A stretch of 36,509 nt of DNA from Chrysochromulina tobinii (GCA_001275005.1 JWZX01003355.1:1-36509), one strand, 5' to 3'. Numbered from the stretch's first letter, positions 3,001 through 35,603 are shown. Made by a program: numbers and translations. The notes: generated by a model from the sequence alone, not told the origin.

Positions 3001-6000
3001 CTCGTAGCCAAGCACGGGCTCGAAGCTCAGCAGGTTGGCAACCTGCAGGTGGCTTAATGGAACTTGGGCGCCAGTGGGCGCCTGCAGGCCGGCACGATCA
3101 GTAGGCACGTCGAAGAGGAGAAGCAGCTCGGCGCCTGCCATGCGATTGGTAGGCAGCTGCGCGGGCCGCCGGAAGGCACGGGTGTAGTAGCTGCGGATCA
3201 TGGGGGGGGGGCGGCTGCCGAGGTCGCCGGTGAGGTTACATGCGGTGGTCTGTAGAGCCACGGCGCCCATGTACAACGAGGGCGTGATGTGCGGCCGGCC
3301 GGGGAGACCGGTGACGAAGCGGATCTGGCTGCCCACGACGGGCGTGACGAACCTGATGAGGGAGGCAATCCGATGAGTGATGAGGGAGGCAATCCGATGA
3401 GTGATGAGGGAGGCAATCCGGTTAATATGAGGCCATCAGACGCCATCAGACGCCATCAGACGCCTTCAGATGCCATCAGACGCCATCAGACGCAATCAGA
3501 TTATGAGAGGGCGCGACGAACCCTGTGAGGAGCCAGTGCGTCGAGACGACGCGCGTGGGGCCGGCGGCGATCGCTGCGGGCGGAAGGCTGGGGGCGGCGA
3601 GGCTGGGCAGGCGGGGCGGTGGCGCCGTGAAAGGGGGCGGCATGTGCACGTTCGCGTTGCTGCTCGCATTGTGCGCAGACGTCGTGTAGGTGCCGACGGG
3701 CGCGCAGTGGGCCCAACTGAGCGTGACGTTGCTCGCATTCGACAGAGTTGCGTTGCTTCCGTTGGTCGGACTGGTCGGCAGCAGAATGGGAGTGCATTCG
3801 AGGGATGCATTCGACGTAGTGGTCGCATTGGGGCTCAGCAGGGCGGGGGGGGCGGCGGGGGGGCTGCTCCGCATGGCGCTGCTCTCCCCAAGCGTGCGCA
3901 CGCGGCCGCCTGTGGGGTTGATGATGGTCACGACGAAAGTGAAGTCGTTGACCCACACGCCGCTGTAGTCGGCACCGAGCGGATGCGAAAAGTCGAAGAG
4001 CTCATCGACCAACGGCTTGCCCCCGGACATGGCGCACGGCCAGCTCGGGTTCCCAAATCGGGACATGCATACCTCGGCGGCGGGGCGCGCGCGCTCGTCG
4101 AAGGTGATGCTGAGCGTATCTCCCGCGCTGAGCTGCATGTCGCCATTGTCCGGATCGGCAGCGACGAAGGAGACGATGCGTGGCAGAGGGCCGCTCGACA
4201 AGGTCGCGACCGTACGAGACGGCGGCGCGTTGAGCAGCGGGCTCTGCACGTCGCCTTGGACGGCCACCGTCATGCCCAGCTGCACGGGCCACGGGGGCGA
4301 CGCGATGCTCGTAGCGAGCACCTCGAGCGTCGACGAGTCCGTCCAGACGGCGCGCAACTCGTCCCCGACGCGTGAGGGCAGCGCGGGATTGCGAACGTCC
4401 TCTCCCGGCCAGTGGAAGCTGAAGAGCCGATCCAAATATGGGCGAGTGCCCTCATCAAGGGCGCGATTGGTCGCCACGTCGAACTCGATCTCGAAGCGAT
4501 CTCCGACGCCGTAGGACAGGTCGCCCTCATCGGGGTCGGAGGCCTCGAACCGCACGATGCGCGGCGCCGTGCTCGATCCGAAGGAGCCCGTGAGCACCGC
4601 CGAGTCCCCACAGGGCGGTGAGGTGCGCGCCGCGTTGGTGATGTCTCCACACATGCTGGACGTGAACGTCGGGCAGCGCTTCGCGGAGAAGGTGGTGGTG
4701 CCGTCGAGACGAATGCCGTTATTGGACGAGACGTCAGAGACGGTGATCACAAACGTCGAGCTGTCGGCCCACGTGCCGCTGTACGAGTTGCCCAGCTGGC
4801 CCGAGACGGAGAAGAGGGCGTTGACAAAGGCGCGGCCTCCGCTCACGCCCGCGGCCGCATACACGCCGCCCGCGTTCGGATTCGTATAGAGCCCTCCAGC
4901 TTGGTAGTTTCGGTACGTGACGCTGAGCGCGACGTTGAAGGTGATGGTGATGAGATCGCCGTCGCTGTACTCGAGTGCGGAGCTGTCCGGGTCCGAGACG
5001 ACCACCGACACGATCCGCGGCATGTCGAACGAGCCAAAGGTGCCGATCAGCGGCAGCACAGTCGAGGTAGAAGCGGCGGCCGAGGTGCTGCCCGCATTGC
5101 GCACGCGCACCGCGTCGCGCAGTCGGACGGTCGTCGAGCCGTCGAGCACAGGGAGGAGCCCCACCGTCGTGATCGTCACGTCGGTCGTGACAGGCGGCAC
5201 GTAGAGGAAGCGCGCGAACTCGCACTCGCGAGCGGACTCGCCGCGCGTCCGGTCGCAGAGGGTGTTGGGCGTGTCGAACATGTACTCGGCTCGAAGCTTG
5301 TCTGCGTCGAAGCCGTCCCACCAATAGGTACTAGAGGAGGCGGGCTCTAAGGAGGTCTGAGGAATGAACTGGTAGATGCCGCGCAGCGAAATTCTCTCTT
5401 GAGGGAAGCCCACAGCCCTGCTCAGGTTGACCACGGGATCTTGCACGAGGCTCGGCAGATTGAGCCACGGCCGTTGGAGCTGTCCGGGCCCAGGCCCCGC
5501 GGTGGCGGCGGAGGGCTCGAAGGCGATGCTCGCGCCGGTCGTGTCGATGAGTGTGATCACAAAGGTCCACTCGTTGAACCAGGCGCCACTATAGTCCGCA
5601 CCCAGATTGAGGGGCTGGTTGGGGCTGAAGCCTGCGAGATACACAGGCCGACGCGCCAAATCGTACTCAATGTAGCCGTTGCCCACGAATTGGAAGAGAG
5701 AGTCGACGTACGCCTTGTTCCCCGACGGGAAGCGAAGCGGTCCGCTCGGATCCGCATCGGGCAGCGGTGCCACGTAGGCCATGCCCGCGCTCGTTGGCCG
5801 GTCGAGGACGATCGAGATCGTGTCGCCGGCAGTGTAGCCAGCGCCGGCGCCCGCGGCGATCAGCTGGATCGTCTGTGGGTTTGGCTGCCAGACGCCTGTC
5901 AGCTGCGCGGGCTGCCAGTTGCGCTGGAGCGTGCATGCCGGCACGGGCAGCTGGTTCGTCTCCCACTTGTCGCCGACGGGTGCGCCTGAGCCGCCCTCGA

Positions 6001-9000
6001 CGGCGCTTGTGGTGCACATGATCGGTCCAGCCTGCGGCGCGTACGCCGAGATGCGCGGCTCACGGTAGTACAAGAACGTCAGCCCCGTCGGTGCGAAGTC
6101 GATGCCGTTGAGCGACACGTACACCATCACGTCGCCCGCAAAGTTCAAGTCCATGGCGGCCGACGGGCACACGATGGTGTTGGACACGTTGTAGCCCAGC
6201 ACGCCCAGGACGGCGGCGCCGGAGAGCGCCAGCGTCGTGTGGGCATGGTCCTCACCCCATCGGCAATAGCGCTGCGCCGCCGCCGAGTCGTCGAATCCGG
6301 TGAGCGTCCCTCGCCAACTCTGAGCCTCCCTCATGACCCAACGTGTGCCGCCCGAGCTTGGGCCTCGCAGCCGCCCTTGGACCAGCACCATGCTGCCGGG
6401 CTGCTCGTAGTAGCGCAGCTCGAGCCTCACTTTGACGAATTGCTGCCCGTTGATGGCCACGCTCAGCTCGTCGATCGGGCTGCTGCCGCGCGGGGGCGTG
6501 CGGCACTCGAGCCGGTTGGCCGCCACCGTCAGGGCTGGGGTCTCTCTGTAGTTGGCGAGCACCTGTGGGGAAGAGGCGAGCTCGTCCCAAGCACCCCAAC
6601 GGCAGCGCGCCGCGCCAGCTGCGGGCGGCTTGTACGTGCCGAGTGCGTCGAGCCCGTTGGCGTAGACGGTGATTAGGGTGCCCCCGCTCGACGGCCCGCC
6701 CCTCGGTGAGAGGCTGAGGACATCGGCGAGCGTCGGGTTCCGGTAGTACGTGAAGTCCAATCCCGTGTCCTCGAAGGGCGCGATGCCGTTCAGGGAGAGG
6801 TACAGACGGACCACGCCCACGACGGTGCGTGGTGTGGTGGTGCACGTGATGCGGCTCGCGTTCAAAAAGGAGGGCGTGACCAGTCCGCTCTCTTCTTCGC
6901 CCCAGCGGCAGCGCACGAGCTCGGGCGTGTCCGAGTTGAACGCGTCGAGGGCCGCGCCCTCTAGGTGGACGACGGTGCCGCCCTGCAGTGGGCCGCCGCG
7001 CACGGAGAGGGAGTAAAAGATGGACGAGATGACGAAACCAATTCGACTCTGCGCGGCGACGGTGGCATCGATGAGGTGCGAGACGGAGCGGAGCGTCCGG
7101 TCGTACAGTGCCGACGAGGCCTCGCCCACCAGGTCAACGAGGGAGCGTGCGAGCAGAAAGGGTGTCGGCAGCCGTCCAGTGTTCACAGGGAGAATCTCCA
7201 CGACGACGCTGATCGCTGTGAAGGCCGTAGAGCTGAGCTGTGAACTGTGAACAGCCGTAGAGCTGAGCTGCCGGCCTCCGCTTTCGGAGGACTCGACGGC
7301 GGCGCTGCCACCACCAGCCCCAGCGAGCTGCAGCCGCCGGCCAGCGGAGCCGCCTCCAGCTGAGGACGACTCACTCACGATGCGCACGACCTGCAGGCGC
7401 GACGCCGTCACGTTGCGTCCGTTCGACTCGACGGCCATCAGCGAAGCGGCGAGGTCCTGCCGAAGCGCCGCCTCGAAGGCCACCCGTGCTTGCGAGCCGG
7501 CGGGCACCTGGTCGATCCCGAGGTTCACGCGGAAGGTGACTCGGCGTGAACGCTGCGGCTCCATCGAGTAGAAGCCAAACGAAAAGGGCGTGGGGTCAAA
7601 GTCGGCGCCATTGAGCGAGACGAGCACGTCGTGGACGGCCGTGTCGGGCTTGGACGGCGTCGCGCACCGAAGCTCGGAGCTGCTCAGGTAGAGAGCGATC
7701 GTATCATCCGTGTCAAGCCCGTCGGTGAAGCGGCAGCGCGCAAACTGCGGCGTGCGTCTGCCTTCGTACTCATGGAAACCCAAGCCGTGGAGCGTGATGA
7801 TCGTGCCGCCGAGCGTCGAGCCGCCGGTCACGGGCGCCATCGTCGTCAGGTTGTACGGCTGCGTGTAGTACGCAAACGGAACGGAGGTTCGAACAAAGTC
7901 GGCACCGTTGAGCGCGAGCACAAACTCGCGGTCCACGTCGGGAAAGTTTGCAAAGGCTCCGCGGTCGAAGGACTCGCAGATGACGGTCGTGTCGCTTAGG
8001 AAGAGGGGGGTGGTCATGTACCTGAGGAGTTGGCACTCATAGGTCATTGGTTGCCATCAAGGAGGCCATCAGGCAGGTCATCAGGGAGGTCATCCGGGAG
8101 GCAATCAGGGAAGCAATAAGAGGCCATCAGAGGCCAGCACAGGCAATCAGACGATGCGTACTGGCCAGAGTAGTCAGAGAGCGCCCTCGACGCTTGCAGC
8201 ACGTCGATGATGAAGACGGAGCCATCGTACCACTCGCCTGAGTAGTCGGGGCCGACGGTCGGCTTCATGAGGAAGAGCGAGTCGACAAAGTCGCGCCCGC
8301 CTGAGTGCGCGCCGCGGTTCGTCCGACCGTTGAACGTGACTGTGAGCGTGTCGCCCACGCCGTAGCTAAAGTCGCCGCCGTCGGGGTCGGACGCTCGGAA
8401 GCTCACGATGCGCGGTGGCTGGAGAGTACCAACGCCCGCGTTCCGAGTCTGCAGGACGGGAGAGGTGGCGGTGGCGGGCGCCGAGGTGCGCCCACGGTTG
8501 CGGATTGGCTGCCCGGCCGTTGGCGATGAGGCGATCGTGGGCGTCACGCGCACATTTTTGAGGGTGACGCCGTCGGTCGTGATGCCCTCGTTGCTCGCGT
8601 CCTGGATAGTGATGACGAAGCTCGAGGCATCCTGCCACTCGCCTGAGAACTGGGCGCCGAGCGGGTGCGTGAACGTGAAGAGCGCGTTCACAAAGGCCTC
8701 ATCGCCGCGCGTAGGGGCGTCGAGGCCGCCCCGATCTGTGAGCCGGTCAAAAGTAGATAAAGAGCGAGTCGCCCTCGCCGAAGACGGTGTCGGCATTGTC
8801 CACGTCCTCCAAGATGAACCCACCTACTGGGAGGATCTTGGGCGCCTCAAGGGAGCCAAACGAGCCCACGAGCAGCGCCTGGCCGGAGGCCGCCTCCGAG
8901 TTGCCCGCCGCGTTGACAATCAGCCCGCCGCGCACATCGCGGAGGGATGCGTGCGTCTGGCCCACGAGGGCGGTGCCGCCCGCCGCGCTCACGATCGTCA

Positions 9001-12000
9001 CGAGGAGGGTGGACTCGTCCGTCCACTGGCCCGTGTAGTCGGCGCCAAGCGCGCCCGAGAATTCGAACAGTCGATCGATCTGGGCGCGCGAGATCGAGTT
9101 CTCGCTGTCCTCGGGGTAAAAGGCGCGCGAGGCGCCGCCTCGGTCGGTCGCCACGTCGAAGCGTAGCATGAGCGTGTCGCCCGTCGAGAGCACCGCGTCA
9201 GCATTGTCCGGGTCATCGGCTGTAAACGAGAGAAGCTGAGGCGTACGCACGACGCCAAAGTCGCCCTCGACGGCCACGAGCACCGTCCTGTCGGCGATGC
9301 TCTCGTTGGACAGCCCCCGGTTTTGGATGAGCGCACCCGGCAGGCCCCGTCCTCCGGCGGTCCGCACGTTGAGGTTACTCGGGCGCGTCGAGCGCGGCAC
9401 GAGGCCCGAGACCGACGGGATGATGTCGGTCGGGTCGATGATCTGGACCACAAATGTCGACTCGTCCACCCACTCGCCCGAGTAATCGTCCGCCGGATCG
9501 CCCTCCGAAAAGGAGAAGAGGCCATCCACGTAGTTCTTGAGGCCGTACCGCTCGCCGCCCGCGCGGTCGGTTGGCTTGTTGAACTTGATCGTAAGCAGAT
9601 CGGTTGCGCCATACACCGCGTCGGCATTGTCCACGTTGCTCGCCACGTAGGAGATGATGAAAGGCTGGTCTAGCGATCCGAACGAGCCGTCGAGCATCGG
9701 CTGGCGCAGGTTGCCCCGCGAGTTGCGCACGTCGGCGCGCAGGCGCACGATCGTCACGCCGAGCTCCAGGTGCGCGACGGTGATCTCGTACGGCATGAAG
9801 GTGGGCCGAGGATAGTCGGGCAGAGCGGCAAAGCCGAGCGGGTGAAGCGTGACCGTGTTGTTGCCGATCAGGTATGGCGTGGGCTGCGTGCCCGAGTAAT
9901 TGTTCGCCACGGCCGCGCTCGGCGTGCCCGGGGGGACGCGCCCGCCCGGGCATTCGAGCTGCAGCACGAACGCGGACCCGTCCTCGGACCACGCGCCCGT
10001 CGAGTTGAGACCGTTGGCGATATCGTACACGGGGCAGTCGCCGTTGAAGGGGATGGCGCATCGGGTCGATGGGTTTAGGAAGGAGAAGAGCTCATACACG
10101 TCCGTCGTGCCGCCCGCCTTGTCGGTCGTCATGTCGAAGGCAAAGGTGAGCGTGTCGCAGTAGCCGTAGACCGAGTCGCCATTATCCTCGTCGTCGATGG
10201 TGACCGAAAGGAGACGGGGAGGGCGCTCGGAGCCAAAGCTACCACGGAGCACAGCCTCATCGGTGCAGCCGACGCTGGTCGCGGCCACGTTGGTCACATT
10301 ATAAGTGCCGGCGGCGCCAAAGTTGTGACGCACAGTCACGCGCGTGATGCCGATGCGAGGGAACGGCGTGTCCGAGGAGGTGTCGAGGGCCGTCACCACG
10401 AACTCGCGCGCGGACGTCCACTCGCCAGAGTAGTCGACGCCGAGCGAGTCCGAAAAATGGAGCAGCGTGTCGACGTACTCCTTGCCACCCGCCTGGCCGA
10501 GGAGGCCGGCGCGATTGGTGTCCACGTTGAAGATCAACGTGAGCGTGTCGCCGATCGAAAAGGTCGGGTCGGCATTGTCCGCGTCGTGCGCTGTGAAGGA
10601 GAGCAGCGTCGGCGGCGCCGAGCTCCCAAACGAGCCCTCGAGCGACGCTGGCTCGGTGGTGACCGCGCCAGAACGCGAGGCACTCCGCAACGAAGCGGCG
10701 CCGTTGAAGAAGGCCAAGATGGGCGGCGGCCATTCGGAGTATGAGGGCGCGTACGGGAGGATGTAGGGCGGCGGCGGCGAGGGGGAGCCATCGCGCGGGG
10801 GGGCGGGCGGCAGCACGAGACGCTCGTAGATGCACGCCTGCTCGGGGATGACGCCGAGACTCGCGTTGCTCATTAGGTGCGCCAGGTTGTCGACGCTCAC
10901 GCCCGGCATGGGCACGCACGGGCCCGACATGATCGGCACGCCCGCACCCGCCGTGTCGAGGATGTGGATCTTGAACGTGGAGCTATCGGCCCACACGCCC
11001 GTGTAGTCGGCGCCGAGGGAGTGCGTGAAGACAAAGAGCTCATCCACAAACTCGCGCGGTCCGCTGGTGCGGCGCGGCGGGGCGAGCGCGTCCGTGGGCA
11101 TATCCAGCGTGATCGTGATCGTATCGTCCTTGCTGAACACCTCATCAAAGTCATCGGGATCGTCAGCGACCAGGGCGGCGATGCGCGGCGCCGAGAGCGA
11201 TCCAAACGAGCCCTTGAGGACGGGCAGCGGGCCTGGGTCTTTTTCGGCGCAATAGGTGTGGTACAGGTTGACGCAGACGTACTCCTCGCCGGGGTAGTCA
11301 CTCAGCCCATCCGCAGCGCGTACGCGAATACGCTCGAATGCGGGCGAGCCATCCGGATCTTGCAGCTCGACGTACGTGATCCCCATCTGCTGCAGCCAGG
11401 GGCGCACAGTAGCCTCCGTCAGGGTCTGCAGGTCCACGTTGGCCGGCCGAAGGGCCGCGACCGTCGCCGAGACGCGCGGTGCCTCAAACCCAGGAGCGAC
11501 CGCGGTGACCACGATTGCAAAGGTGCGGTTGTCACGCCACTCCCCGTAGTAATCGGTCGCGAGCGGGCTCGAGAATGTGAAGAGGCGTAGCACGAACTGC
11601 TTGCCGCCGCTGCAGGCCGGCTCGCAGAGCGCTTTGTCCGTGTCGCGATCGAAGCGCAGCAGGTACTCATCGCCCACCGAGAGCACCGCGTCGCGATTGT
11701 CCGCATCGGAGACGGTAAAGCTGACCAGTGCAGGGGCGGGCGGCATCGGCACCACCTGCAGGGGCGGGCACGTCAGGTCCGCGCGAACGTTGGTCTCTGC
11801 GCAGACCTGCGTCCCGTTGATCAGCAGGCCGTGCGTGTAGAGCCTCTCGGTCGTGCCGAATTGGAGGAACTCGAGGTTGCCGCCCCCAAAGCGGAGCGGA
11901 TTGAGTTCGGAGCGTCCGAAGCCGGTCACGTCGAGATCGGTCGAGATGACAAAGGTGGACGCGTCGCGCCAGCTGCCCGTGGCCGTCTTGCCCGGCCCGC

Positions 12001-15000
12001 TGAAGGCGTCGTCCGGTGTGACGCTGAAGAGCGAGTACGGGCTGCTGAGTATGCACGGGTAGCTGAGGACGCCGGTAGAGTCGCACTGCGGGGGCAGGCG
12101 CGTCGCGCCCCGATCGGACGCACGGTCGAGCCCGATCACAATCTCCCACTCGAGATTCTTGCGCCGCTCGCGCCCGAGGACGCTCTTGACGCGCGGGAAG
12201 GCATCCGTCGAGTTCTCGCCCACGTTGCCGCTGAGTGGCAGGCTCCGATTGGCTGTGATGGGTCGCGAGTTGCCGAGGGCGGTGCGCACCTCAGCGACGA
12301 GGGTCACAAAGGTGGGGTGCACGACCACCGTGTTGTTCTCGTCGTACATGACCTGGCTGAGGAGCACCACGCTGCCGTTGCCCGCGTCGTCGATGGTGAT
12401 GTCGAAGGCGGTGCCATCCTCGTTCCAGCGGCCCGAATAGGCGTTGCCCAGCGGCGTGCTGAAGTTGAGTAACGAGTCGACGTACTCGGTGCCGCCGCTC
12501 GTTTCGCCGCCACCCTTGTTGGTCGGGCGGTCAAACTTGAGCGAGATCGTGTCGTTCGCGCTGTAGACGGCGTCGAGGTTGTCATAGTCCTCGGCAACGA
12601 CCTCGACAAACACGGGCGCCTCGGGTAGCTGTCCGAAGTCGCCGACGAGGCGCACCGGCGGCGGCGTGAACGGCATCAGGCACGAGGCCTCGGCCACGGA
12701 CGCTGGACATCCGGCGCTGTTGCGCAGCCGCACCGCATTCGAGCGCACCGAGGGGAACACGCGGGTGGCGCCCAACTCGACGATGCCCGCGCCGGTCGAA
12801 TCCTCGATCTCGATGATAAAGGTGGACGTGTCGTTCCAGCTGCCCGCGTATGCGGCGCCGAGCGGCGTCGTGAAGCCAAACGTACGATCGACTGCGTCGC
12901 GTCCGCCCGTCGGTCCGATCGTCGCTTGGTCTACCGGTCGGTCGAGCACGATCGTGATCACGTCGCCAGGCCCAAAGACCTCATCGCCATTCCGAGGGTC
13001 CTCGATGCGGAAGCTCACGATGTTTGGGGCCGAGAGGGATCCGAACTGCCCTTGCACCTTCAGCACCGCGTCAGCCGCGGCCGAGGTGCGCGCACGGTTG
13101 CGCAGGTCGCCGGTGTTGCCATCGGTGTCGAGATCGACCCCATCGCCGCGCGCTTGGACGAGGGTCCGGCGCCAGTACGCCTCGGAGACGTTGAGCATCG
13201 TGACCGGGCGCACGTTGTCGTAGCAATTGGGCGGCGCCGCGGTGCCGCTCAGCTGGACGCACGCAAAGTGCGCCTCGGGCAAGCTCGAGAGGGAGGACGC
13301 GGGCTTCAGGATCGAGATGCGCAACGCAGAATCCTCTTCGATCCACTCGCCGCTGTAATCGTCGCCGATCGGCAGGCTGAACCAGAGCAGGTCGTCCACC
13401 CACTGCTTCCCGCCTTCGGGATCGCCTTGGCCTCGATCCGTGGCCATGTCGAAGGTGACGGTGAGCACATCACTCGCGCCGTACGTGGCGTCGCCGTCGT
13501 CAGGGTCGGTGCCAATGAAGGACGAGACCGCAGGTGGCAGCTCGTTGCCAAAGTCGCCCACAAGCAGCGCGACGACGCTGTTCATCGAATCGTAGCAGCA
13601 GCACGCGCTCCCAAGCGCACAGCGCTCCGGCGTGTAGTCGGCGCAGCAGCCGCGGTTACGCACAATGGAGCGAGGGCGCACAGTGGCGAGCCCGACCAGC
13701 ACGTCGCCGTGGCCCGACGGCTCAACGATCGTCATCACGAGCGTGGAGTCGTCGGACCATGCCGCACGCACATCCGCGCCCAGCGGCGCGCTGACGTTGA
13801 GCATGTCGTACGGGCACACGCGCGCGCCCGGCGGCGGCTGCGAGGCCACAGGCGCCCACGTGTCCACGGGGAGGCTGCACGGGTCGCTCGAGTCCGTTGT
13901 GAATCGAGCGCTGCGGCCGCCGCGGTCGGTCGCCAAGTCAAACGTGACTGTGAGCGTGTCGCCGCCGCCGTACACCGCATCGCCATTGTCGAAATCGTGC
14001 GCGGCAAACGAGACGATCATGGGCCCACGTGTCTTGCCATAATCTCCCGCGAGCGGTGGGCTGGGCGCAAAGGCCCGGGGCGACGAGCTCGAGCGAGTTC
14101 GAATGGCGGCGGCGTCCTTTGGCTTGACCGTCGCGCCGCTGACTGGATCGGGCATCGGCGTGCAGCCTGGGCACGTGGCCTGGAGGATCGTGATGCGGAA
14201 CACTGAGTCGGCGTCGAGCAGCCCGTCCGCGCTGCCCGAGGTCCACTCGCCGCTGTAATCGTACGCAAGCGGCTGCGAGAAGGAGACGAGCCCGTCGACG
14301 AAGGCCTTATCGCCCGATTTGGGCCCGCCGCCTCGATCCGTTGGGCGCGAAAAGTAGAGGGAGACGGTGTCGCCTGTGGAGTAGACATAGTCGAGGTTGT
14401 CGGGGTCGTTGGCAAGCGCCGAGAGCAAGCGGGGGGCGATCCTCGAGCTCAACGAGGTGCGGAGCGTCGCGTTGGCGGTCTCGACGCCGCCGATGCGCGT
14501 GCGCACGGTGGTGACTCCAACGCGCGCGCGCGACGACGCGCGCGCGTGCTCGAGCTCGAGCACGGTGATGAGCAGCCGCGTGCGGCTGAGCCATTCTCCT
14601 CGGTAGCGCGCGCCGAGCGCCGCACTAAAGAGCAGCCCCTCTTGCGCGTGAAAGGTACCGATGCGGTCGTCTGAGCCCGCCGCGGCCCAGGAGCCCCCCC
14701 AAAAGGAGGCGCTCGAGTTCTCGTTGACGAAATAGTGGTGCCACACCTCGCCCGGAACGTGCGCGCTCGTGTTGAACTCGAGGAGCAGAGTCGCGTTCGC
14801 GCCAAAAGAGCCGTCGGGGCGCAGCCCGCCGTGGCCCGCATGGAGCAGTTGGAAGGTGGACACGTGCGGCAGCTTCGGCGGAGGCGGGGCGTCGGTTTCT
14901 GGCGCCAGGAGTTCTGCCGGGTCGCCCTCGAGCGTGACGAGCTCGTTGGTGGACGCAGGGAGGTTGCCTCGCTCGTTGTACAGGACGGCCATCCCAGTGA

Positions 15001-24000: not shown

Positions 24001-27000
24001 TTCCTCCGGTGGTCACACCCCCGGGCGGCCCGCCGTTCACAGTCACCTGGTCGATTCGCAGGCCGTAGTAGCGGAATCGGTACGTCGTGTCCACGTACTG
24101 CTGGGCGTTGAGCGTCACGAGCACGAACGCGGCCTCGGCCTCAGCGATCGCCGTCTGATCATTGCCATATTTGGGTATGGTTGCCATATTTGGGCGAGCG
24201 GCACACGTTCAGTGAGGATCAGAGGCACTCAGGGGCCATCAGAGGGCATCGGAGGCACTCAGAGGGCATATGAGGCCATCAGAGGGCATCGGAGGCCATC
24301 AGAGGGCATCAGAGGGCATCAGAGGGCATCAGAGGGCATCAGAGGGCATCGGAGGGCATCGGAGGGCAGCACGCACCTGATTGGGCGAGCGGCACGTCCA
24401 CCGCTCAGGTAGCAGCTCGATCGGCGGTGTGTCGGCGATGTTATTCGACGTGACGAAGCGGCAGCTCGCAAACTCGGTGTTGCCCCCGAGCCCGTGGAAG
24501 CCCTGCCCAAAGATGCTCATGATGTAATCAGAGGTAATCAGAGAGGTAATCAGAGGTAATCAGAGGACTCACCTGACCAAAGATGGTCATGATGTAATCA
24601 GAGGTAATCAGAGGTAATCAGAGGTAATCAGAGGACTCACCTGCCCAAAGATGGTCATGATGTAATCAGAGGTAATCAGAGAGGTAATCAGAGGTAATCA
24701 GAGGACTCACCTGCCCAAAGATGGTCACCACCGTGCCGCCCGAGAAGACGCCTGCCTGCGGCAGCACCGACTGCACCGAAGGCGGGTTGTAGTACGTGTA
24801 GTTCTGACCCGTCCAGCGCGGATCGCGCCCCGACTCGAGGGCGAAGCCGTTGAGGGCGAGCCAGAGCTGACGCGTATCGGTCAACTTCGTGGGTGGGCTC
24901 TCGCACACGGCGGCATGCCCGCCGCCGAGCGCCGTGGCGCGCGTGATCGTGTAGCGAGGGTTGTACGCGGCGTTCGTCGGCTCGCCGTACTGGCACGAGA
25001 GGTACGCGCCGCGATCGAGCGCGTCGAATCCAGTGCCGACGAGGGTGACGAGGGTACCGCCTGTCCGATGACCGCCCGAAGGGATGATGCGCGCTACGTA
25101 CGGGTTGTCATAGTATTGGAAGTTGAGGCCCGTCGCACCAAAGTCGATGGCGTTGAGCGAGAGGGTGAGGTTGACCGTCTCGGCAGCCCCGATGCGTGCT
25201 GGCGGCGCGAGGCACACGATGCGCCGATTCGAAAGCTCGAGGGGCTGCGACTCAGGCGGCGGCAGGCTGAGGGTCTGTGCCAGGCTCGCGGCCAGCATGT
25301 CCACGATCGGGGCCTGCCAACGGCAGCGCACGAGGCTCGACGAGAATGCAAGGAAGCCCGAGCCCACGATCGTGACTGCCGTGCCCCCTCCCTTGGGACC
25401 ACCCACGGGGGACAGCCGGACGAAATCCTCGTTGGATGAAACCCCGGCGCCACTCCCCTTGGGGCGGGGCTGCTGATAGTACTCGAACGTGAAGCCGGCG
25501 ATCGGCTCGAAGTCGGTCTGCGCGCCATTGAAGGAGAGGGCGATGCTCACGACGGCGGGCTGTGCCGCCGGCGGCGTCGTGCACACGATCATATGGCGCT
25601 CGAGGACCTCGGCTGCCACGAAGTTGACGAGCCCAAACCGACACAACGCGTTCCGCGGGTCGGTCGAGAAGACGTCAAACGGACCTCCTAGGATGGTGAC
25701 CGAGGTGCCTCCGCGCGTCGGACCGCCTGTCGGCTCGCTTGCCGTGTAGTTCGTCGGCTGCTCATAGTACAAGAAGGAGACGTTGAGCGCGTACAAGTCG
25801 ATCGCGTTGAGTGCGAGCGACATGTTGCGCCGAGCCGTCGTCGACTGGGGGAACGAGGCGACGACGATGCGATTGGGCGTGAGCACGCTCGGTGTCGTCA
25901 GGTTCGTCAATGACGTGTCGCCCCACCCGACGCGCACGTCACTCACGTTGATGGAGGCGTACGCTTTGAAGCCACTCCCGCCCAGAGTAACGACGGTGCC
26001 GCCGTCGACCCGCCCGCCCGTTGGGTGGATGGACGTCACCGTGAACGGCTGCACGAAGTACGTGAAGTTCAGCGCCGTGTCGGGCGTCACGGCCACATAG
26101 TCGCGGTCGTTGAGCGCGATCTCAAGGCCCACGACGGTGGCTTGCGTGAACGGCTGAGCGGCTGTCCTGCACCAGAGCTGCGTGTCGTCCAGGTACTGCG
26201 GGATGGTCACCTCCGTCCCATCCCATCGGCATCGCGCGTTCCCCGCCTGCGCGCCCCCCAGTCAACGGCCGCATGCAATTAGAGTGATCATCAGCGGTCA
26301 TCAGTGGTCATCAGTGGCCATCAGCGGCCATCCGAGCTCATCCGCGCTCATCAGCGCCACTCACCTGCGCGCCCCACCGGGCGAATGCCGCGAGGCCCTC
26401 GCCATGGATCGTGATCACCGAGCCGCCGAGGGTGGGGCCCGCCGTCACGGGGGTCAGATGCGTGAGGCGCGTCGGCTGCACGAAGTAGGCATACTCGAGG
26501 CCGTTGGTGTGGTAGTCTTGGCCGTTGAGGGCGATCTCCATGTCGGTCACCACCGGCGACGAACGCACCGGCGAGCGGCACACGACGCGCATGGGCGTGA
26601 GCACCGTCGGTGTCTGGAAGCTCACCAGAGGCGTCACGGCGTCCTCCGCCTCGGTCACATTGGTAGACAGGCAGGGGCGCAGCTCGACATTCGAAGTGCT
26701 CAGAGGCGCCGAGCCGTCGAGGTAGGGAGGTGCACTGCCCAGCCGACGCAGGCGCGTCTGCCCCGGACGGATGGAGATGCGCAGCCCCGAGCCTGATGAC
26801 GGGAGCCATCAGATAGGATCAGAGGCCATCAGAGGCCCTCCGAGGCCCTCCGAGGCCATCAGAGGCCATCAGAGGCCATCAGAGGCACTCAGAGGCCATC
26901 AGAGGCCATCAGAGGCCATCAGAGGCACTCGGAGGCACTCGGAGGCCATCAGAGGCCATCAGAGGCACTCGGAGGCACTCAGAGGTGACGAACCGCCTTG

Positions 27001-28495
27001 GAGTAGATTGGTAGGCGCGGCCTGCGAGTCGCCGCCCGACACGGCGCCTGGCGTGACGCGTGCGTTGATGGCCTTGAGGGTGAGGCGACGCGTGTCGAGC
27101 CACTCGCCCGTGTACGTATCAGCCAAGCGCACAGGCCCGCCTTGCCCCCTGCTCGAGAAGACGAAGAGTTCGTCCACCTGGCGCGAGAGCCGCAGGCGAG
27201 GGTATGAGGGCGATCGTGTGTGAATGAGGGCGATCGTGTGTGAATGAGGGCGATCGTGTGTGAATGAGGGCGATCGTGTGTGAATGAGGGCGATCGTGTG
27301 TGAATGAGGGCGATCGTGTGTGAATGAGGGCGATCGTGTGTGAATGAGGGCGATCGTGTGTGAATGAGGGCGATCGTGTGTGAATGAGGCCCATGCAGCT
27401 TCGATCCAAGGTCATTCGCGCCCCGCCCAGGCATGACTCCGAGCCACGCCTCGGAGCCATGTAACGTACCTGTGGGGAGTGAGGGCGTCGTGATGAGCAC
27501 TTGCATGCCGAGCCACGCCTCGGAGCCGTGTAACGTACCTGTGGGGAGTGAGGGCGTCGTGATGAGCACTTGCATGCCGAGCCACGCCTCGGAGCCGTGT
27601 AACGTACCTGTTCACCGGTGAGTTGGCGCGAGAAGCCGTTGAAGGCGGTGGCCGCGAGTTGGATGCCGTTCGTTGGTATATCGAAGATGACCGAGAGAGG
27701 CACCGCGCCTGTGAGTGCATCGGCTTCGCACCCGTCCGGCTGCGAGCCCACGCGGAACGCTACGATCGAAGGCTTGTCGGTGAACCGGCACCGGATCAGT
27801 GTGTCCGCGAGGTCGATGTGGGACTCGTTCAGGTAGCCTCCCGTGAAGCCGATGCCCTCGATCACGACCTCGGTACCGCCGGTGACGGGCCCGCCCGTGA
27901 TGGCGGCGTTGGTGAAGTTTGCGGGTGCCGGGTAGTAAATGTACGTGAACCCCGTGTCCATCAGGTTCGGCTCAATGAACGTCGTCCCTACTGTCGTCCC
28001 AGCGAGCGTTATGTAGCGCAGCGAAAACCACAGGCTGACTAGGCCCGACACGCGCGGGTACGACGGGCACTTGAGCATATCGACGCGGCTGATGCTGGCC
28101 GGGACGTCAAAGGTGGCGCGCAGCTCGGGCGTCACGGTCACCTCGGTAAGCAGCTGGGTCGCCTCCGTAAAGTATTCGGGCGGCACCTCGGGCAACGACG
28201 CCTCATCGTCGCTCCAGCCCGACCGGTCGGCCTGCTGTCGCGCAAGGATGGCCTGCTCCCAGTCCTGCGGATTGCCCCAGTGGCATTTCACGCGGTTGAG
28301 CACGCCGGTGCTGATCCGGCTGAACTCGCGGCCGACGATCGTCACGGTCGTGCCGCCCTGCACCGGCCCGCCGGTCGGGTGGGCCGAGTAGACGGGTGGC
28401 GCTTTCTCGTTATGGCTCGTGCTCCGGCTCCCAGGAGGGAGTATGAGCAGCAGCGGCAGCAGCAGCAGCGCTGTGGGAGCACGCCTGCGCGCCAT
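1..28495 (-). CDS. Giant secreted/cell-surface repeat protein with IPT/TIG domains and ~44 copies of an uncharacterised acidic ~130-150-aa module; 3'-partial (>8,800 aa)
   Basis: ATG at 28495 in CCACCATGG context, followed by signal-peptide-like MARRRAPTALLLLPLLLILPPGSRS. Inferred exons: 28495-27608, 27177-26994, 26792-26365, 26246-24711, 24502-24377, 24154-23906, 23829-23572, 23461-23208, 23116-19046, 18890-18200, 18113-17139, 17065-8162 (one extra base at 8749-8752), 8021-3522, 3352-<1. All joins are GT-AG and phase-consistent, and they stitch the long minus-strand ORFs (481, 514, 1320, 2784, 1523 aa and others) together. IPT signature P..GP..GGT.VT..G.GF...CR[FW]...C..P...LNG..F. Confidence 0.85.
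3353..3521 (-). other. Intron 13 of giant gene (5' exon copy plus type A acceptor cassette)
   Basis: Starts GTTCGTCGCGCCC; next exon starts GTTCGTCACGCCC; ends TTGCCTCCCTCATCAG; contains 10-bp and 24-bp tandem repeats. Confidence 0.8.
8022..8161 (-). other. Intron 12 of giant gene
   Basis: GTACGC...CTCCTCAG, phase 2, filled with degenerate CTGAT repeats; joins SGQ-YMTTP. Confidence 0.7.
17066..17138 (-). other. Intron 11 of giant gene (17-bp 5' exon copy plus type A cassette)
   Basis: GTGCGCCCGCGAGACGC occurs at the intron start and at the next exon start; ends TGATTGCCTCCCTCATCAG. Confidence 0.85.
18114..18199 (-). other. Intron 10 of giant gene (27-bp 5' exon copy, 3 mismatches)
   Basis: GTGCGCTCCGCGTCCGTTGGCGACCCA versus exon GTGCGCTCTGCGTCCATTCGCGACCCA; ends TGATTGCCTCCATCATCAG. 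Confidence 0.85.
18891..19045 (-). other. Intron 9 of giant gene (CTGAT minisatellite)
   Basis: GTACCTGATT...GATGACAG, phase 2, joins RNR-WDLL. Confidence 0.75.
23117..23207 (-). other. Intron 8 of giant gene (9-bp 5' exon copy plus type A cassette)
   Basis: GTACGACGA at both the intron start and the exon start; ends GAGTGCCTCCCTCATCAG. Confidence 0.8.
23462..23571 (-). other. Intron 7 of giant gene (3' end resembles upstream exon end)
   Basis: GTGAGT donor; ends GATGCCGCAG versus exon end GATGACGCAG. Confidence 0.8.
23830..23905 (-). mobile_element. Intron 6 of giant gene: introner-like unit (32-bp exon duplication plus type B cassette)
   Basis: GTGAGCAGGGAGCGGCTCCTCTGCGCCACGCC is identical to the next exon start, followed by TGCATGCAAGTGCTCACCACGGCGCCATCGCCATATCCCCACAG. 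Confidence 0.7.
24155..24376 (-). other. Intron 5 of giant gene
   Basis: GTGCGT...GATCAG; 10-bp CTCTGATGCC array; internal copy TGCCGCTCGCCCAA of the upstream exon end. Confidence 0.75.
24503..24710 (-). repeat. Intron 4 of giant gene: three tandem intron units (70/68/70 bp)
   Basis: Each unit is GTGAGTCC-(TCTGATTACC)n-...CATCTTTGG[G/T]CAG, ending in a copy of the upstream exon end; internal AG|GT at 24641/24640 and 24573/24572. Confidence 0.85.
26247..26364 (-). other. Intron 3 of giant gene (11-bp 3' exon copy)
   Basis: GTGAGT donor; ends GGGGCGCGCAG, the same as the upstream exon end. Confidence 0.8.
26793..26993 (-). other. Intron 2 of giant gene (10-bp minisatellite)
   Basis: GT donor at 26993 (an in-phase GC donor at 26996 is also possible); CTCTGATGGC array; ends CCCGTCATCAG. 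Confidence 0.7.
27178..27607 (-). other. Intron 1 of giant gene, containing two 69-bp type B units and a 20-bp minisatellite
   Basis: Splicing GEQ|VDELFVFS restores the repeat-module consensus; units at 27607-27539 and 27538-27470. Confidence 0.75.
27204..27389. repeat. 20-bp minisatellite (TGAATGAGGGCGATCGTGTG), about 9 copies
   Basis: Near-perfect tandem array with no spacers, inside intron 1. Confidence 0.95.
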
Positions 28496-28832
28496 GGTGG
28501 GGCCTCGGTGAGCGCTCCGCTTTGCTTGGAAAAGGCACAAATAAGCGTTGAAGTGGGCGGTCAAAGTTTGCAGAGTGCGGGGTGCTTTGGTAGCATGTGG
28601 TAGCCGGCGGCCCGGTGACTCGTACTGAATTCTTTGACACTACTGTACGATTTCCCTGAAGAAAGTAAGAGCCGAGCCGTGTGGAACAATTGAAATGTCC
28701 ACGTACTCGTGTACTGTTGTACATTGTGTCTTGGAACTTACCCCGGAATTTGCCGGTTGCAACACGGACACAGTTTCGTCAGAAGCGCCGCGTCAAGCAC
28801 ATCGAGGTCCTGTGCGACCTCCGAGAAAGCTC
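28496..28832. promoter_or_regulatory. Short head-to-head intergenic region, probable bidirectional promoter
   Basis: 337 bp, visibly more AT-rich than the flanking coding DNA, between two divergent ATGs (28495 minus, 28833 plus). No specific element identified. Confidence 0.45.
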
Positions 28833-31085
<2,253 letters not shown>

Positions 31086-31530
31086 GCACGCGTTGGAGCA
31101 CGAGGAGAGCGAGAGAGATTTGTAACCGACCAAGCTACCCTACCAATTGGCGGGACAGCCATACTCTCACGAGGAGAGCGAGCGCTCTACCGCTCCTTGA
31201 TTGCTTACCGCTGAAGACAACGACCTATCTAACGCCATCGCCGCAGCGTTCCAGAAAGAAGAAACAGCCGTGCGTGTATCTATAGATAACGAGTGGAGGT
31301 GCCGGGGCGCAGGGGGCGAGCGTTCTCATGCGATGCAGATAGAGTTGCAGATTCCGCTTGCCGATGCGTCGCGTGTTGGACGGGAAGTTCGATGCTACTG
31401 TATACAACAAAGCGTCACTTAATCTAAGACACACCCGGGTCCGGGGGCCGCGGCCGGGCCGGCCACGACGGTTGTCAGGCGCGGGGCGTCTCGAGACCGG
31501 GTTGCACTAGAGTGCTAGAGTGCTGACACG

Positions 31531-34500
31531 TCACCGAAAGCCTAACCCCAACCGCGTGCCTGGCAGCTGCGGGGACTCGTTCCTGGGCGGCGGCGAGTTC
31601 CGAGCGTTCTGCTGGTTGAGCTGGTCCCACGCGTTGACCGGGATCTCCTTGGCCGTGGCATAGCGAATGTGCATTGTGGTGGCGCCGAGCCCGACGGCGC
31701 GCGCCGCGCGCATCTCGACTGTCTGGACTTCGTGCCAGTTCGCCTTCCGCGCGGACGGGTGATGGACCTCCGGCTGCACGCGAGCGCTGTACTGACCGGG
31801 CCCCTTGACAGGGGTCCCATTGGGTAGGATGTAATGCGGCTCCGAGCGCGCGCTACTCGAGGGCGGCGGGTGCGGCGCCGCGTCTCGCAGCCCTACCGGT
31901 AGGCTCGACGCGAAGGCGCCGTCGCGAGCGCTCGCGCTGCCGCCGCCTTTGGCTGTACGCCGGTGACGCGGCGAGCTGCCCCCGAGGATGGCGGCCGCCG
32001 CGGCGCCATCGGAGGGCGCGTGGGGGGGCATGCCCGCAATCTCCGCCTCGGGAGATCCGCGTCCGGAGTGGCGGCTCGACGGGAGCGGCGGGAGCGCTGC
32101 ATCGGGCGCGCCGTGCGCCGCATAGGCTGCCGAGGGCGGATGGGCCGTCGCCGCCGGCGCCTGCTGCCGCTGCTGGTGCTGCTGGTGCTGCTGGTGCTGC
32201 TGGTGCTGCTGGTGCTGGTACTGGTGCTTCTGCCCGGGTGGCGAGGCCGATCGAGGGCGCACTAAGGCTGCCTTATATAGGAGGCCAGCGAGGGTGCCCT
32301 CGCGCTTCCCCTCGAGCTTCGCGGCCGCGTCAGAGCGCACCCCGGCCTGCGCTGCCAGGTGCACCCGCAGCAGGTGGAGCGAAGCGAGGGCGGACTGCAC
32401 CAAATGAGAGCGCTCAGCGGCGGCCGCCACTTGCGTGCCCTCGAGCTTCTCCGTCACGTGCTGTAAGTTCAGCTCGATGCGCTGAAAGTCCGCTTTGCGC
32501 GCCTTGAGCTCCTTGAGCATGTCTTGCCGTCGAGCCTCGAGGCGTGCCTCGTTCGCCCTCGCGCTCTTAAGAGAGTTCTCGGATTCCTGTGCCTTGCCGT
32601 GCGCCGAGCGCACCTCCGCCACCGAGGCCGCCACGACTGCCTTGTAACGGTCGAGGAGGATGCGTAACCGATCGGCGACGGGCGCATTCGGCGGCTCGAG
32701 CAGCGTATGGATGCTCATCAGCCAATCGGGCAGCGGCTCGCCGGAGCGGCCCGTGTAGTACCTGATGAGGGAGGCAATCAGAGGTCATCAGAGGTCATCA
32801 GCCAATCGGGCAGCGGCTCGCCGGAGCGGCCCGTGTAGTACCAGCTATCCGAATGAGGCACGATCGCGGCGCCTTTGCTCGCCGTCTCGCCGGCGCGTTG
32901 GCGCAGCTCGAGCAGCTCCTCAATCGCCTCGCGCACGACGCCGTGGACGTCGTCGAGGTGCTGTGTGGAGCGCACCGCCTTCGAAACGGCCTCACCGAGC
33001 TGCGCCCCGAGGCGCTCGGCAGCCGCGACCGCCTGCGCCGCCCTCTCTCGATACCGCCGCTCCTCCTTGAGCTCATCGTCGGCGTCGTCGAGCGTGTGGC
33101 ACAGCGCAATCTGCGCCACCTGACGTGCGGCGAGGTAGCCCTTGAGCTTGGCGACCTCGCTCGCATGCACCTCCTTGAGCATCGCGAGATCGGCGAGATG
33201 GCGCTGGCTCGAGCGCCGCCATCCGCCGCCGCATGCGCGTCCTCGATCGTGCGAAGGGTCGCGCGCGTCGCCTCGTGCGCCGCCGCCTCCTGTGCCGTCG
33301 CCGCTGCCGCCGCCGCCGCCGCCGCGTGAGCAGCCTCGAGCTCGAGCTGGAGCGTCGCGACCTGCGCCCCGTGCGCGCTGATCTGCGCGCTGACCTGCGC
33401 ATGTAGCGCTTCCAGCTCGGCCGTGTGGTCCACCGGTGGCGGCTTGGCGCGCTCCGCCTCGAGCTCGTCGCTCACCTGATGAGGGAGGCACTCGATCTAA
33501 TTAGGGATGCAATCAAAGGCAAACAAAGGCCATCAAATGGCCTCGAGCTCGTCGCTCACCTGGCGCAATCTCGCCTCGAGCTCCGAGATATGGAGCTCAA
33601 GCGCACGCTGGCCCGCCGCGCCCTGCTCGAGCGCTGTGCGCTGCTCCTCCACGAGCGCCTCGAGCTCGCGCAGCCGCGCCGCCGCCGCCTCGCGCCTCGC
33701 CACCTCTTCCGGATCCTCCTCCCGCACCTGTGGGGAGGAGAGGGCGCCGTGGTGAGTACATGCATGCTGGGAGAGGGAGACACGGATCCTCCTCCCGCAC
33801 CGTTTCCACAACGAGCGGCGCGTCGAGCGAGGGGTCCTCGGGCGGCTCGGGTGGTTCGACGACGCCCTCGAGCTCCTGTGAGCCGCGCAGCCGGCGCGCG
33901 AGCCGGCGCAACTCCCACCGCAGCTCCTTGGCCACCCGTTGCGTCGCCGCGTCCACGTCCGCGATCACCTGTGGGGAAGGGTGAGGCGCCATGGTGAGCA
34001 CTTGCATGGCACCAGCCGCAGTAGGGATCGTCCACGATCACCTCGGAGCGAAGAATCAAGTGCACTCAAGTGCAATCAAGTGCAATCAAGTGCAATCAAG
34101 TGCAATCAAGTGCAATCACCTCGGAGCGGAGCTGTCGCGTCGCCTCCTCCGCGGCGGCCGAACGCTCAGCGAGTGCGATCGCCTCGGCCTCCTTGGTGCC
34201 CAAGCGCGCGAGCGCCTCGTCGAGCTGGGCGCGCACCTGTGGGGAAGGCGAGGCGCCGTGGTGAGCACATGCATGCTGGCCGAGGCGCCGCGCGTCGAGC
34301 TGGGCGCGCACGGCGTCGGTCTCGGCACGCAGATTCGCGGCCGTCGCCATCGCCTCGAGCGCCTCGATCTCGTGCTGCGCCGCCAGCGCGGCAGACGCCT
34401 TCTCCGCCGCCGCCGCCGCGGACGCTGCCTTGGCGAGCTCGTCCTTGAGGACTTTCTCGCGCTGCTCGGCCTTGACGGCGCGCTCCTTCTGCAGCTCGAA

Positions 34501-35076: not shown

Positions 35077-35309
35077 GGCGACAGCCTAGTTATGTCTGGA
35101 GAGAGATTGGCCCGTGGCATTCTCAACAAACTCGGGCAAGTCCGCAAGTCGGAACAACCATCCGTGCCCAACGCGACGCGATCGGTCCAAGCGCGCATCG
35201 AAGTGTATGTGTAAAGGACTGGCTTTGTTCGTGGACTTCTCGAGATTGCACCATGGCTTGCACCATGGCTTGCACAATCATTTTCTACAGCATTACGGTT
35301 TGTCGTTTC

Positions 35310-35603
35310 CTGCGTTTACGCGGTCGGGGGTGCGTATGCGCAGAAACTTGTGTATACGCGAGGGGGTACGTATACGCACCCGCTGTGTATACGTACTACC
35401 GCTCGCGTAAACGCACCTAGCCGCGTATACGCACCCGGGTGCGTGTACGCACCCGCTGCGTAAATGCACCCAGCGCTCGCGTATACACACCCACCCGCGT
35501 AAAACGCACCCACACCCGCGTACAAGCACGTGTGCGTAAACGCGGCGTCGGATGCGTATACGCACCTACCTGCGTATACGCACCCGACGCTGCGTTTACG
35601 CGG
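35310..35603. repeat. Palindrome-rich repeat tract (GCGTATACGCACCC units), possibly MITE-like
   Basis: Many GCGTATACGC/GCGTAAACGC units in both orientations; CTGCGTTTACGCGG direct repeat at both ends; imperfect ~20-bp inverted termini just inside it. Confidence 0.55.

What the first reader, a model, noticed from the sequence alone, without database searches (positions are those of the whole stretch)
3353..34311. Introns built as 'exon duplication plus splice cassette': candidate intron-generating system with long, variable target duplications
Seen: 17 of 22 inferred introns in three unrelated genes carry a direct copy of the adjacent exon. In the 5' type the intron begins with a copy of the downstream exon start, which supplies GT: 13 bp (3521), 17 (17138), 27 (18199), 9 (23207), 32 (23905), ~21 (30002), 47 (32841), 20 (33559), 18 (33800), 13 (34041), 19 (34311). 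In the 3' type it ends with a copy of the upstream exon end, which supplies AG: ~17 (24641), 11 (26247), 10 (23462), 27 (29844), 10 (30337), 9 (34042), plus an internal copy at ~24190-24204. The geometry is TSD-X-TSD, where splicing removes X plus exactly one TSD and leaves the protein unchanged. Established: described introner elements are typically short non-autonomous DNA transposons that co-opt one splice site from a short, family-fixed TSD. Inference: duplications of 9-47 bp, with no terminal inverted repeats that I can see, fit staggered-break repair or a target-primed insertion better than a DDE transposase. The range from 0 to 3 mismatches suggests ongoing gain. I cannot tell whether this has already been described for this lineage.
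Basis: partly seen in the sequence, partly recalled or inferred. Interest (0 to 1): 0.92.

Follow-up and report, generated by a model that had tools for sequence, protein, structure and literature searches.

The report
Introns that copy-paste from other introns
In this freshwater alga, many spliced-out introns are flanked by a 10-55-base copy of the gene's own sequence and some are filled with pieces that match another identifiable intron, which likely means new introns are being made by DNA repair copying old ones rather than by a classical jumping gene.

Summary
Real. 14 of 22 scored introns carry an exon copy above the null maximum and 3 more tie it. RNA contigs support 12 junctions and DNA contigs hold the copies. 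The host is very likely Chrysochromulina tobinii. In 613 kb of related contigs, 73 of 148 cassette-ended acceptors show an 11-55 bp copy against 2 of 587 null pairs. There are no TIRs, and inner junctions show microhomology. New here: exon copies act as tags. Three source-to-recipient pairs show whole or partial introns copied into unrelated coding sites through 6-12 bp homology (97/101, 71/73, 63/64 identical). Nearby introns share rare variants about ninefold more often, on either strand. ProRS relatives read through the positions unspliced, favouring gain. Best reading: template-switch or repair copying from existing introns, not a fixed-TSD transposon. The enzyme, RNA versus DNA template and ongoing activity are unproven; no polymorphism was shown. 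A 2025 introner screen lists 0 families for C. tobinii. This scan noted the footprint before in this genome (e1-2577349).

The parts
3353..3521 (-). intron, 5' type, 13-bp exon copy (1 mismatch), acceptor tail A triplicated
8022..8161 (-). intron with repeat tract, no significant copy (4 bp)
17066..17138 (-). intron, 5' type, 17-bp copy, tail A
   Evidence: RNA joint 3/3 runs
18114..18199 (-). intron, 5' type, 27-bp copy (3 mismatches), tail A
   Evidence: RNA joint 3/3, whole intron in DNA contig
18891..19045 (-). intron of repeats only, no copy
   Evidence: RNA joint 3/3
23117..23207 (-). intron, 5' type, 9-bp copy (ties null maximum), tail A
   Evidence: RNA table 8
23462..23571 (-). intron, weak 3' type (10 bp, 1 mismatch; ties null maximum)
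   Evidence: joint not among rows shown
23830..23905 (-). intron, 5' type, 32-bp perfect copy, tail B
   Evidence: RNA joint 3/3, DNA 0 (35 shared letters exceed the 31-letter word, so less secure)
24155..24376 (-). intron whose 3' copy of the upstream exon end (about 24190-24204) is interrupted before the AG
24503..24710 (-). intron, 3' type, three stacked 70-nt units each ending in a 17-bp copy
   Evidence: RNA removes all 208 nt
26247..26364 (-). intron, 3' type, 11-bp copy
   Evidence: RNA joint 3/3
26793..26996 (-). intron of repeats plus A-like tail; donor unresolved (26993, 26996 or 27032)
27178..27607 (-). intron with two identical 69-nt units (27607-27539, 27538-27470) in front; each is a 31-nt copy of the older intron's start plus tail B
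29724..29844 (+). ProRS intron 1, 3' type, 27-bp perfect copy; position read through unspliced in relatives
30002..30160 (+). ProRS intron 2, two stacked 5'-type units, 21-bp copy; intron starts GT where the exon starts GG
30252..30337 (+). ProRS intron 3, tail B, weak 3' match only
30821..30950 (+). ProRS intron 4, no copy
32762..32841 (-). gene 3 intron, 5' type, 47-bp perfect copy whose last 7 nt also match the repeat tract
   Evidence: one DNA contig lacks it, possibly by graph collapse
33476..33559 (-). gene 3 intron, 5' type, 20-bp copy, tail A
33728..33800 (-). gene 3 intron, 5' type, 18-bp copy, tail B
33969..34041 (-). gene 3 unit, 5' type, 13-bp copy, tail B, directly behind the 34119 unit with no exon between
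   Evidence: (DNA contig 33763-34091)
34042..34119 (-). gene 3 unit of pure repeats; the 14-bp duplication spans the AG|GT site
34237..34311 (-). gene 3 intron, 5' type, 19-bp copy, tail B (75 nt, no stop in any frame)
1..28495 (-). host gene 1: giant repeat protein with IPT/TIG domains, runs off the window
28834..31084 (+). host gene 2: prolyl-tRNA synthetase (the window lacks one base after 29193; all four runs have it)
31534..35073 (-). host gene 3: alanine/glutamate-rich protein, no Pfam match in the three exons scanned

Best explanation
These are real spliceosomal introns flanked by 9-55 bp direct copies of their own exon, and they were likely gained when a broken or stalled DNA end in an exon switched, through a few bases of homology, onto an existing intron, copied part or all of it, and rejoined a short way back. 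Shown: the geometry, the splicing of 12 junctions, the genome-wide frequency, the lack of TIRs, junction microhomology, and three source-recipient pairs. Inferred: the distance between exit and re-entry sets the duplication. Copying through to the template's AG gives the 5' type; leaving at AG|G and stopping within the repeat tract gives the 3' and spanning types; exit and return at one point copies a whole intron. GT/GC starts, sense orientation and a unit of about 65-95 nt are likely imposed by selection for splicing. Identical stacks likely arise later by unequal crossing-over between the copies. The machinery is predicted to be host repair or replication (polymerase-theta or MMBIR-like) with a DNA template; it was not identified.
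For: 73 of 148 terminal tail-A/B acceptors in 131 loci carry a copy, against 2 of 587 null pairs. 94 of 321 repeat tracts are flanked by a duplication, against 0 of 631 shuffled pairs and 24 of 300 random positions: 47 5' type, 11 3' type, 14 spanning, 22 with no register. Copy lengths run continuously from 11 to 55, median 24.5. No TIR: 4.4 vs 3.9 matches of 12 for X, 3.9 vs 4.2 for whole introns. Inner-junction microhomology averages 2.9 nt in 27 direct junctions vs 1.0 in the null. Tagged pairs: L026:6613 to L026:3745 (97/101 identical, same AAA-ATPase gene, different phase and domain position); L105 (a protein with C2-domain-like motifs, label recalled) to L048 (71/73, unrelated protein, 12-nt homology at the target, no flank similarity); L069 to L129 (63/64, joined behind L129's own 25-nt copy by a 7-nt overlap). 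Rare 14-mer sharing: same locus same strand 13 of 818, opposite strand 4 of 235, other loci 117 of 67,515. Copies stacked behind an existing acceptor start with non-GY in 4 of 14 cases vs 4 of 56 otherwise (p=0.045). About 10 of the 14 stacked units differ from the tail before them (read by eye). ProRS proteins called on 8.5-52 kb contigs in four separate relative lineages read through positions 1-3, three of them also position 4; off-frame tails show that such calls are unspliced.
Against: No enzyme, no presence/absence polymorphism and no empty orthologous DNA site was seen. 32 of 59 inner junctions have a spacer rather than a direct join, and spacers do not match local flanks better than chance. 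The opposite-strand enrichment rests on 4 pairs, and an 11-mer version of the test showed 0 of 72 opposite-strand pairs under 3 kb. Half of the acceptors show no detectable copy, and GT follows them as often (45 of 64 tail A) as those with a copy (39 of 59). ProRS evidence is indirect (gene calls, quick tree with open nodes), and two distant relatives (P0056, P0101) break off at position 3. The copy-versus-X length anticorrelation (rho -0.55, slope -0.6) also fits replacement of old introns.
Confidence: 0.6

Rival explanations
1. Target-primed reverse transcription: a non-LTR reverse transcriptase copies intron-containing RNA at a nick, giving variable TSDs, a fixed AG end and a truncated 5' end with microhomology.
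For: Variable 11-55 bp duplications, a constant 3' tail with a variable 5' end, and 5' microhomology fit L1-type insertions (own knowledge). Same-strand neighbours within 1 kb share rare 11-mers most often (20 of 350).
Against: Mirror 3' and spanning types need internal priming; no poly(A) or fixed body seen by eye; nearby opposite-strand introns are also enriched in one test; no reverse transcriptase was looked for or found.
Confidence: 0.15
2. Renewal, not gain: older introns at these positions were partly overwritten by one-sided repair from spliced cDNA or the neighbouring exon, leaving half an intron plus an exon copy.
For: Both types equal half a typical intron plus the spliced junction; total length is roughly conserved; 14 of 70 copies sit at existing acceptors, and 27607 sits at an existing donor.
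Against: ProRS relatives lack introns at positions 1 and 2; foreign tags need a template from another intron; stacking of about 14% is only modestly above the 3-9% expected from donor-motif density (my estimate).
Confidence: 0.15
3. Plain tandem duplication of an AG|GT-containing exon segment, later padded by local repeat expansion.
For: 14 spanning cases take both splice sites from the duplication; 10-nt periodic repeats dominate and vary in number between contigs.
Against: It cannot supply identical acceptor tails in hundreds of places or foreign tags; 5'-type sites often lack an upstream AG (24 of 56 have it); intermediates would be unspliceably short.
Confidence: 0.06
4. A conventional non-autonomous DNA-transposon introner.
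For: Same logic of co-opting a splice site from a TSD; high copy number (tail bins at about 90-600 times single-copy depth); 4-bp-TSD introners are reported in marine Chrysochromulina MAGs.
Against: No fixed TSD length, no TIRs, no end-to-end family identity, chimeric bodies.
Confidence: 0.04

Closest known systems
Introners / ILEs (Gozashti 2022, PMC9860276; Roy 2020, bioRxiv 10.1101/2020.10.14.339549; Gozashti 2025, PMC12130899)
   Same: Repeated intron sequence; one or both splice sites taken from a duplicated target; mRNA unchanged. Polarella classes take the 5', the 3' or both sites from the TSD; a marine Chrysochromulina MAG family has a 4-bp TSD and no TIR.
   Different: Described TSDs are short (3-9 bp) and fixed per family, and families are recognisable along their length. 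Here the duplications are 9-55 bp and continuous, bodies are chimeric fragments of other introns, and C. tobinii scored 0 families in the 2025 screen.
[quoted passage not shown]
   Same: Direct repeats flank new introns; repair is the proposed source.
   Different: There the filler is of unknown or mitochondrial origin and repeats are short; here the filler traces to other introns, repeats are long, and the footprint is on a third to a half of sampled repeat-bearing introns.
Templated insertions and tandem duplications from alt-EJ or paired nicks (review PMC7407515, which cites Vaughn and Bennetzen 2014)
   Same: Short tandem or non-tandem duplications with insertions copied from nearby or ectopic donors, and microhomology.
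   Different: Not described there as a source of functional introns.
Tandem genomic duplication, intron transposition and intron transfer (as defined in PMC3296678)
   Same: The spanning type uses both sites from the duplication; whole-intron copies reach new sites.
   Different: Transposition by reverse splicing predicts no duplication; transfer needs paralogues, whereas recipients here are unrelated or non-homologous positions with only 6-12 bp of homology.
Sister stwintrons of Hypoxylaceae (PMC8469720)
   Same: Introns duplicate to new sites, nested units occur, and end-joining repair is proposed.
   Different: Those have long TIRs, insert seamlessly and do not duplicate splice sites at the target.

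Membership tests
DNA-transposon introner (MITE-like) | Short TSD of family-fixed length (3-9 bp) | tested here: not met
   11-55 bp, continuous, for tails A and B pooled
DNA-transposon introner (MITE-like) | Terminal inverted repeats | tested here: not met
   4.4 vs 3.9 and 3.9 vs 4.2 matches of 12; maximum 8
DNA-transposon introner (MITE-like) | Autonomous transposase partner | not testable with these tools
   no whole genome held
Introner, broad sense | Many introns share sequence at unrelated sites | tested here: met
   shared tails A and B in 148 terminal acceptors; high depth
Introner, broad sense | Copies alike from end to end | tested here: not met
   only isolated pairs are alike end to end (L026 pair, L105/L048); bodies otherwise differ in repeat unit and length
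Introner, broad sense | Insertion is spliced out and restores the mRNA | tested here: met
   12 junctions supported in RNA contigs
Introner, broad sense | Position absent from relatives (gain) | tested here: inconclusive
   ProRS relatives read through unspliced, indirect and one gene; no empty DNA site seen
Non-LTR / SINE insertion by TPRT | Variable-length TSD and 5' microhomology | tested here: met
Non-LTR / SINE insertion by TPRT | One element polarity with a poly(A) or repeat tail at its 3' end | tested here: not met
   the repeat tract lies before the fixed tail in the 5' type and before the copy in the 3' type, always in intron sense
Non-LTR / SINE insertion by TPRT | Partner reverse transcriptase | not tested
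   no genome; the 613 kb of loci were not scanned for RT
Repair / template-switch templated insertion | Insert copied from an identifiable donor, joined by microhomology | tested here: met
   three tagged pairs; junction microhomology
Repair / template-switch templated insertion | Donors enriched near the site | tested here: met
   about 9-fold enrichment within loci
Repair / template-switch templated insertion | Dependence on polymerase theta or another repair factor | not testable with these tools
   needs genetics
Tandem genomic duplication model | Both splice sites from one duplicated AG|GT, no outside sequence | tested here: not met
   both sites in 14 of 94, always with a tract between the copies (by construction of the census); most take one site from a tail

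The most novel reading that the evidence does not exclude
Chrysochromulina tobinii has a transposase-free, self-feeding route of intron gain: host repair copies pieces of existing introns into exons by microhomology, each new intron becomes a template, and its exon-derived tag records parent and child, so an intron genealogy can be read from a single genome.
Probability: 0.45. Interest if true: 0.92.

Novelty: new variant of a known kind. Interest (0 to 1): 0.82.

Why it matters
How new spliceosomal introns arise is a long-standing question, and current surveys credit transposons. Here a cultured, sequenced alga that scored zero in such a survey shows a long-duplication footprint on a large share of sampled introns, and some introns name their source. 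This makes repair-driven gain and intron-to-intron copying directly testable by genealogy, strain comparison and induced breaks. It also suggests that family-clustering screens miss a mode of gain, and that long exon copies at junctions can mislead splice aligners and short-word assemblers.

Tried and rejected
No whole genome was available, and records behind the loci could not be extended. Motif scans of viral contigs and prokaryote genomes gave 0 matches; Rfam gave 0 in the window. A codon-score test for tracts in non-coding or antisense DNA was not usable: the threshold called 179 of 337 'non-coding', many plainly coding; sense 146 vs antisense 12 is only suggestive. Donor 'improvement': three GC>GT and several +3 changes towards consensus occur, but mismatches at +1 to +6 are not in excess (15/282 vs 42/747), so no claim is made. 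Spacers as local snap-back copies: not above null. Intron positions across repeats of gene 1: no shared column, but only 7 introns fell in aligned units and most columns align poorly. B-type clustering within genes, noticed by eye, was not borne out (5/62 vs 545/11,949 pairs). Eight overlapping contig pairs showed SNPs, repeat-number changes and one 39-bp exon duplication, but no intron presence/absence; most were picked by the motif itself. DNA run X13 has a contig lacking the 80-nt intron at 32841, but the 47-bp copy exceeds the 31-letter word length (word length inferred from the tool text), so collapse cannot be excluded. A homologue search with an L026 ORF found nothing at the chosen lengths. 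Li 2009 and Vaughn 2014 are not held. Literature searches that found no description of this pattern in haptophytes; subscription papers, bioRxiv supplements and files 13-14 of the PMC12130899 supplement were not seen, and the 2022 supplement was cut when stored.


Full report
Setting. The window holds three intron-bearing genes: a giant repeat protein with IPT/TIG domains on the minus strand, a prolyl-tRNA synthetase on the plus strand, and a protein without Pfam match on the minus strand. ProRS hits are 83-90% identical at the top and include Prymnesium parvum. Four of eight ORFs taken from contigs that carry the same acceptor motif are letter-identical to NCBI proteins of Chrysochromulina tobinii. 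The window itself was not matched to a named record, so its species is inferred: C. tobinii or its close sibling C. parva. No whole genome was held.

Observation. I count 23 introns and scored 22. Removing all introns leaves open frames, apart from three frame breaks in the window; two of them are contradicted by other runs (after 29193 in 4 of 4 runs; 33206 and 33223 in the DNA run). RNA contigs support 12 junctions: eight in gene 1 in 3 of 3 RNA runs with no such joint listed for the DNA run, two ProRS junctions directly, and two by the exact number of letters between pieces. DNA contigs from other runs cover most copies, so this is not an assembly artefact. Contigs cannot show strand or level.

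Genome-wide sample. Of 223 tail-A or tail-B acceptors, 75 were set aside as internal to stacks or followed by cassette words; 73 of the remaining 148 have an anchored copy of the downstream exon, against 2 of 587 null pairs. The share is similar in the short-contig series that I took as environmental (22 of 37) and in the rest (51 of 111). A census that starts from repeat tracts found a flanking duplication in 94 of 321 scored tracts (33 more lacked flanks), against 0 of 631 shuffled pairs and 24 of 300 random positions: 47 5' type, 11 3' type, 14 spanning AG|GT, 22 without a register.

Anatomy. For 70 copies (three of the 73 dropped as not clearly exonic) lengths run from 11 to 55, median 24.5; 27 of 60 ungapped copies are perfect; single units are mostly 63-95 nt, and copy and filler lengths are anticorrelated. 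The filler is a tract of mostly 10-nt repeats (period 10 in 845 of about 1,250 spacings) whose unit differs between introns, with or without tail A or B. In many 3'-type introns the GT is formed by a G of the copy and the start of the repeat, so there is no carried donor cassette. There are no TIRs. Where the copy meets the filler directly (27 of 59), the overlap averages 2.9 nt against 1.0 in the null. That the repeat core resembles a branch-point motif is recalled, not tested.

Source and recipient. An exon copy marks the intron in which it arose. The intron at L026:3745 is 97/101 identical to that at L026:6613, including the latter's exon tag, 2.9 kb away in one AAA-ATPase gene, at another phase and domain position. 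The intron in L048 is 71/73 identical to that in L105, tag included, in an unrelated protein, with 12 nt of homology at the target. The intron in L129 begins with its own 25-nt copy and continues, through a 7-nt overlap, with 63/64 identity to an intron of L069, tag included. Removing each recipient opens a frame; none was checked on RNA. Flank matches in two of the pairs come, by my reading, from other cassette introns inside the flanks. More broadly, introns of one locus share rare 14-mers about nine times more often than introns of different loci, on the same strand (13 of 818) and on the opposite strand (4 of 235); an 11-mer version favoured the same strand. Template type is therefore open, leaning to DNA.

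Stacks. 14 of 70 copies sit directly behind an existing acceptor; about 10 carry a filler unlike the preceding tail, such as tail A then tail B in L122. In the window, 34119 plus 34041 and the two units at 27607 are of this kind. Stacked copies start with non-GY more often (4 of 14 vs 4 of 56), which suggests that the process does not need GT and selection does. Stacking is only modestly above what donor-motif density predicts, so targeting of junctions is not required.

Gain or renewal. ProRS proteins called on 8.5-52 kb contigs in four clusters (P0009; P0013/P0123; P0125-P0128; P0129-P0132) read through positions 1-3, three clusters also position 4. Off-frame tails, and breaks at other places in P0007, P0015 and P0135, indicate unspliced gene calls. 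On a quick tree these lineages are not one clade (4 changes; careful search unfinished). This favours gain at 29724 and 30002. P0056 and P0101 break at position 3, which may be old or parallel. No polymorphic site was shown.

Mechanism. The simplest single account is a microhomology-driven template switch during repair or replication: exit after copying part of the exon, copy from another intron, re-enter a short way back. Shown: products, donors, microhomology, local bias. Inferred: order of events, DNA template, host enzyme, role of selection. I give it 0.6; target-primed reverse transcription 0.15; renewal 0.15; plain duplication 0.06; DDE introner 0.04.

Literature. Gozashti 2022 (PMC9860276; passages and supplement rows) describes 3-9 bp TSDs and a 4-bp-TSD family in a marine Chrysochromulina MAG; C. 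tobinii and C. parva appeared only in its input table in the stored, cut file. Gozashti 2025 (PMC12130899; passages and supplement rows) lists 0 families for C. tobinii, says about 72% of introners are unclassified, and notes one Emiliania family with 10-bp terminal direct repeats. Roy 2020 (parts 1-2 of 4) gives fixed 3-8 nt TSDs. Yenerall 2011 (PMC3296678), the 2024 review (PMC11282704), the stwintron paper (PMC8469720), the repair review (PMC7407515) and the C. tobinii genome paper (PMC4580454, one mention of introns) were read as passages. Eight searches showed no description of this pattern.

Verdict. Observation confirmed; interpretation partly supported and extended; a new variant of intron gain, interest 0.82.

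Noticed in passing
window 29193; 33206 and 33223; about 8750-8770: Frame breaks in the window's genes. Likely assembly errors.
   Followed up: partly
window 1-28495 (-): An expressed gene of over 8,800 codons with a signal-like start, about 11 IPT/TIG-like units and about 30 copies of an unnamed repeat; the two long repeat exons scanned have no Pfam match.
   Followed up: partly
window 32715-32794: DNA run X13 has a full-depth contig lacking exactly the 80-nt intron with the 47-bp copy: an empty allele or an assembly collapse.
   Followed up: partly
window 27470-27607 and 33969-34119: Back-to-back GT...AG units with no exon between; candidates for recursive splicing.
   Followed up: no
window 34237-34311: A 75-nt intron with no stop in any frame; retention would add 25 residues in frame.
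   Followed up: no
window 35287-35601: An intergenic 18-nt-period repeat, about 90% identical to L073:3991-4289; a separate dispersed element.
   Followed up: no
window 35602-36509 (-): Leucine-rich-repeat gene fragment, with a relative in L039.
   Followed up: no
L031, L046:3803, L105, L023:1485, window 30002: The intron-side copy differs from the exon towards a better donor (GC to GT, GG to GT, +3 change); not in statistical excess.
   Followed up: yes
L009 vs L035: A 39-bp tandem duplication without filler is present in one contig and absent in the other: a plain duplication allele or an assembly difference.
   Followed up: no
L037 / L084: A duplication-flanked tail-A unit whose copy starts CT and has no splice register; possibly a non-intronic product of the same process.
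   Followed up: partly
window 17132: DNA run X10 has two extra bases inside the intron copy, and several SNPs nearby, so alleles or strains differ.
   Followed up: no
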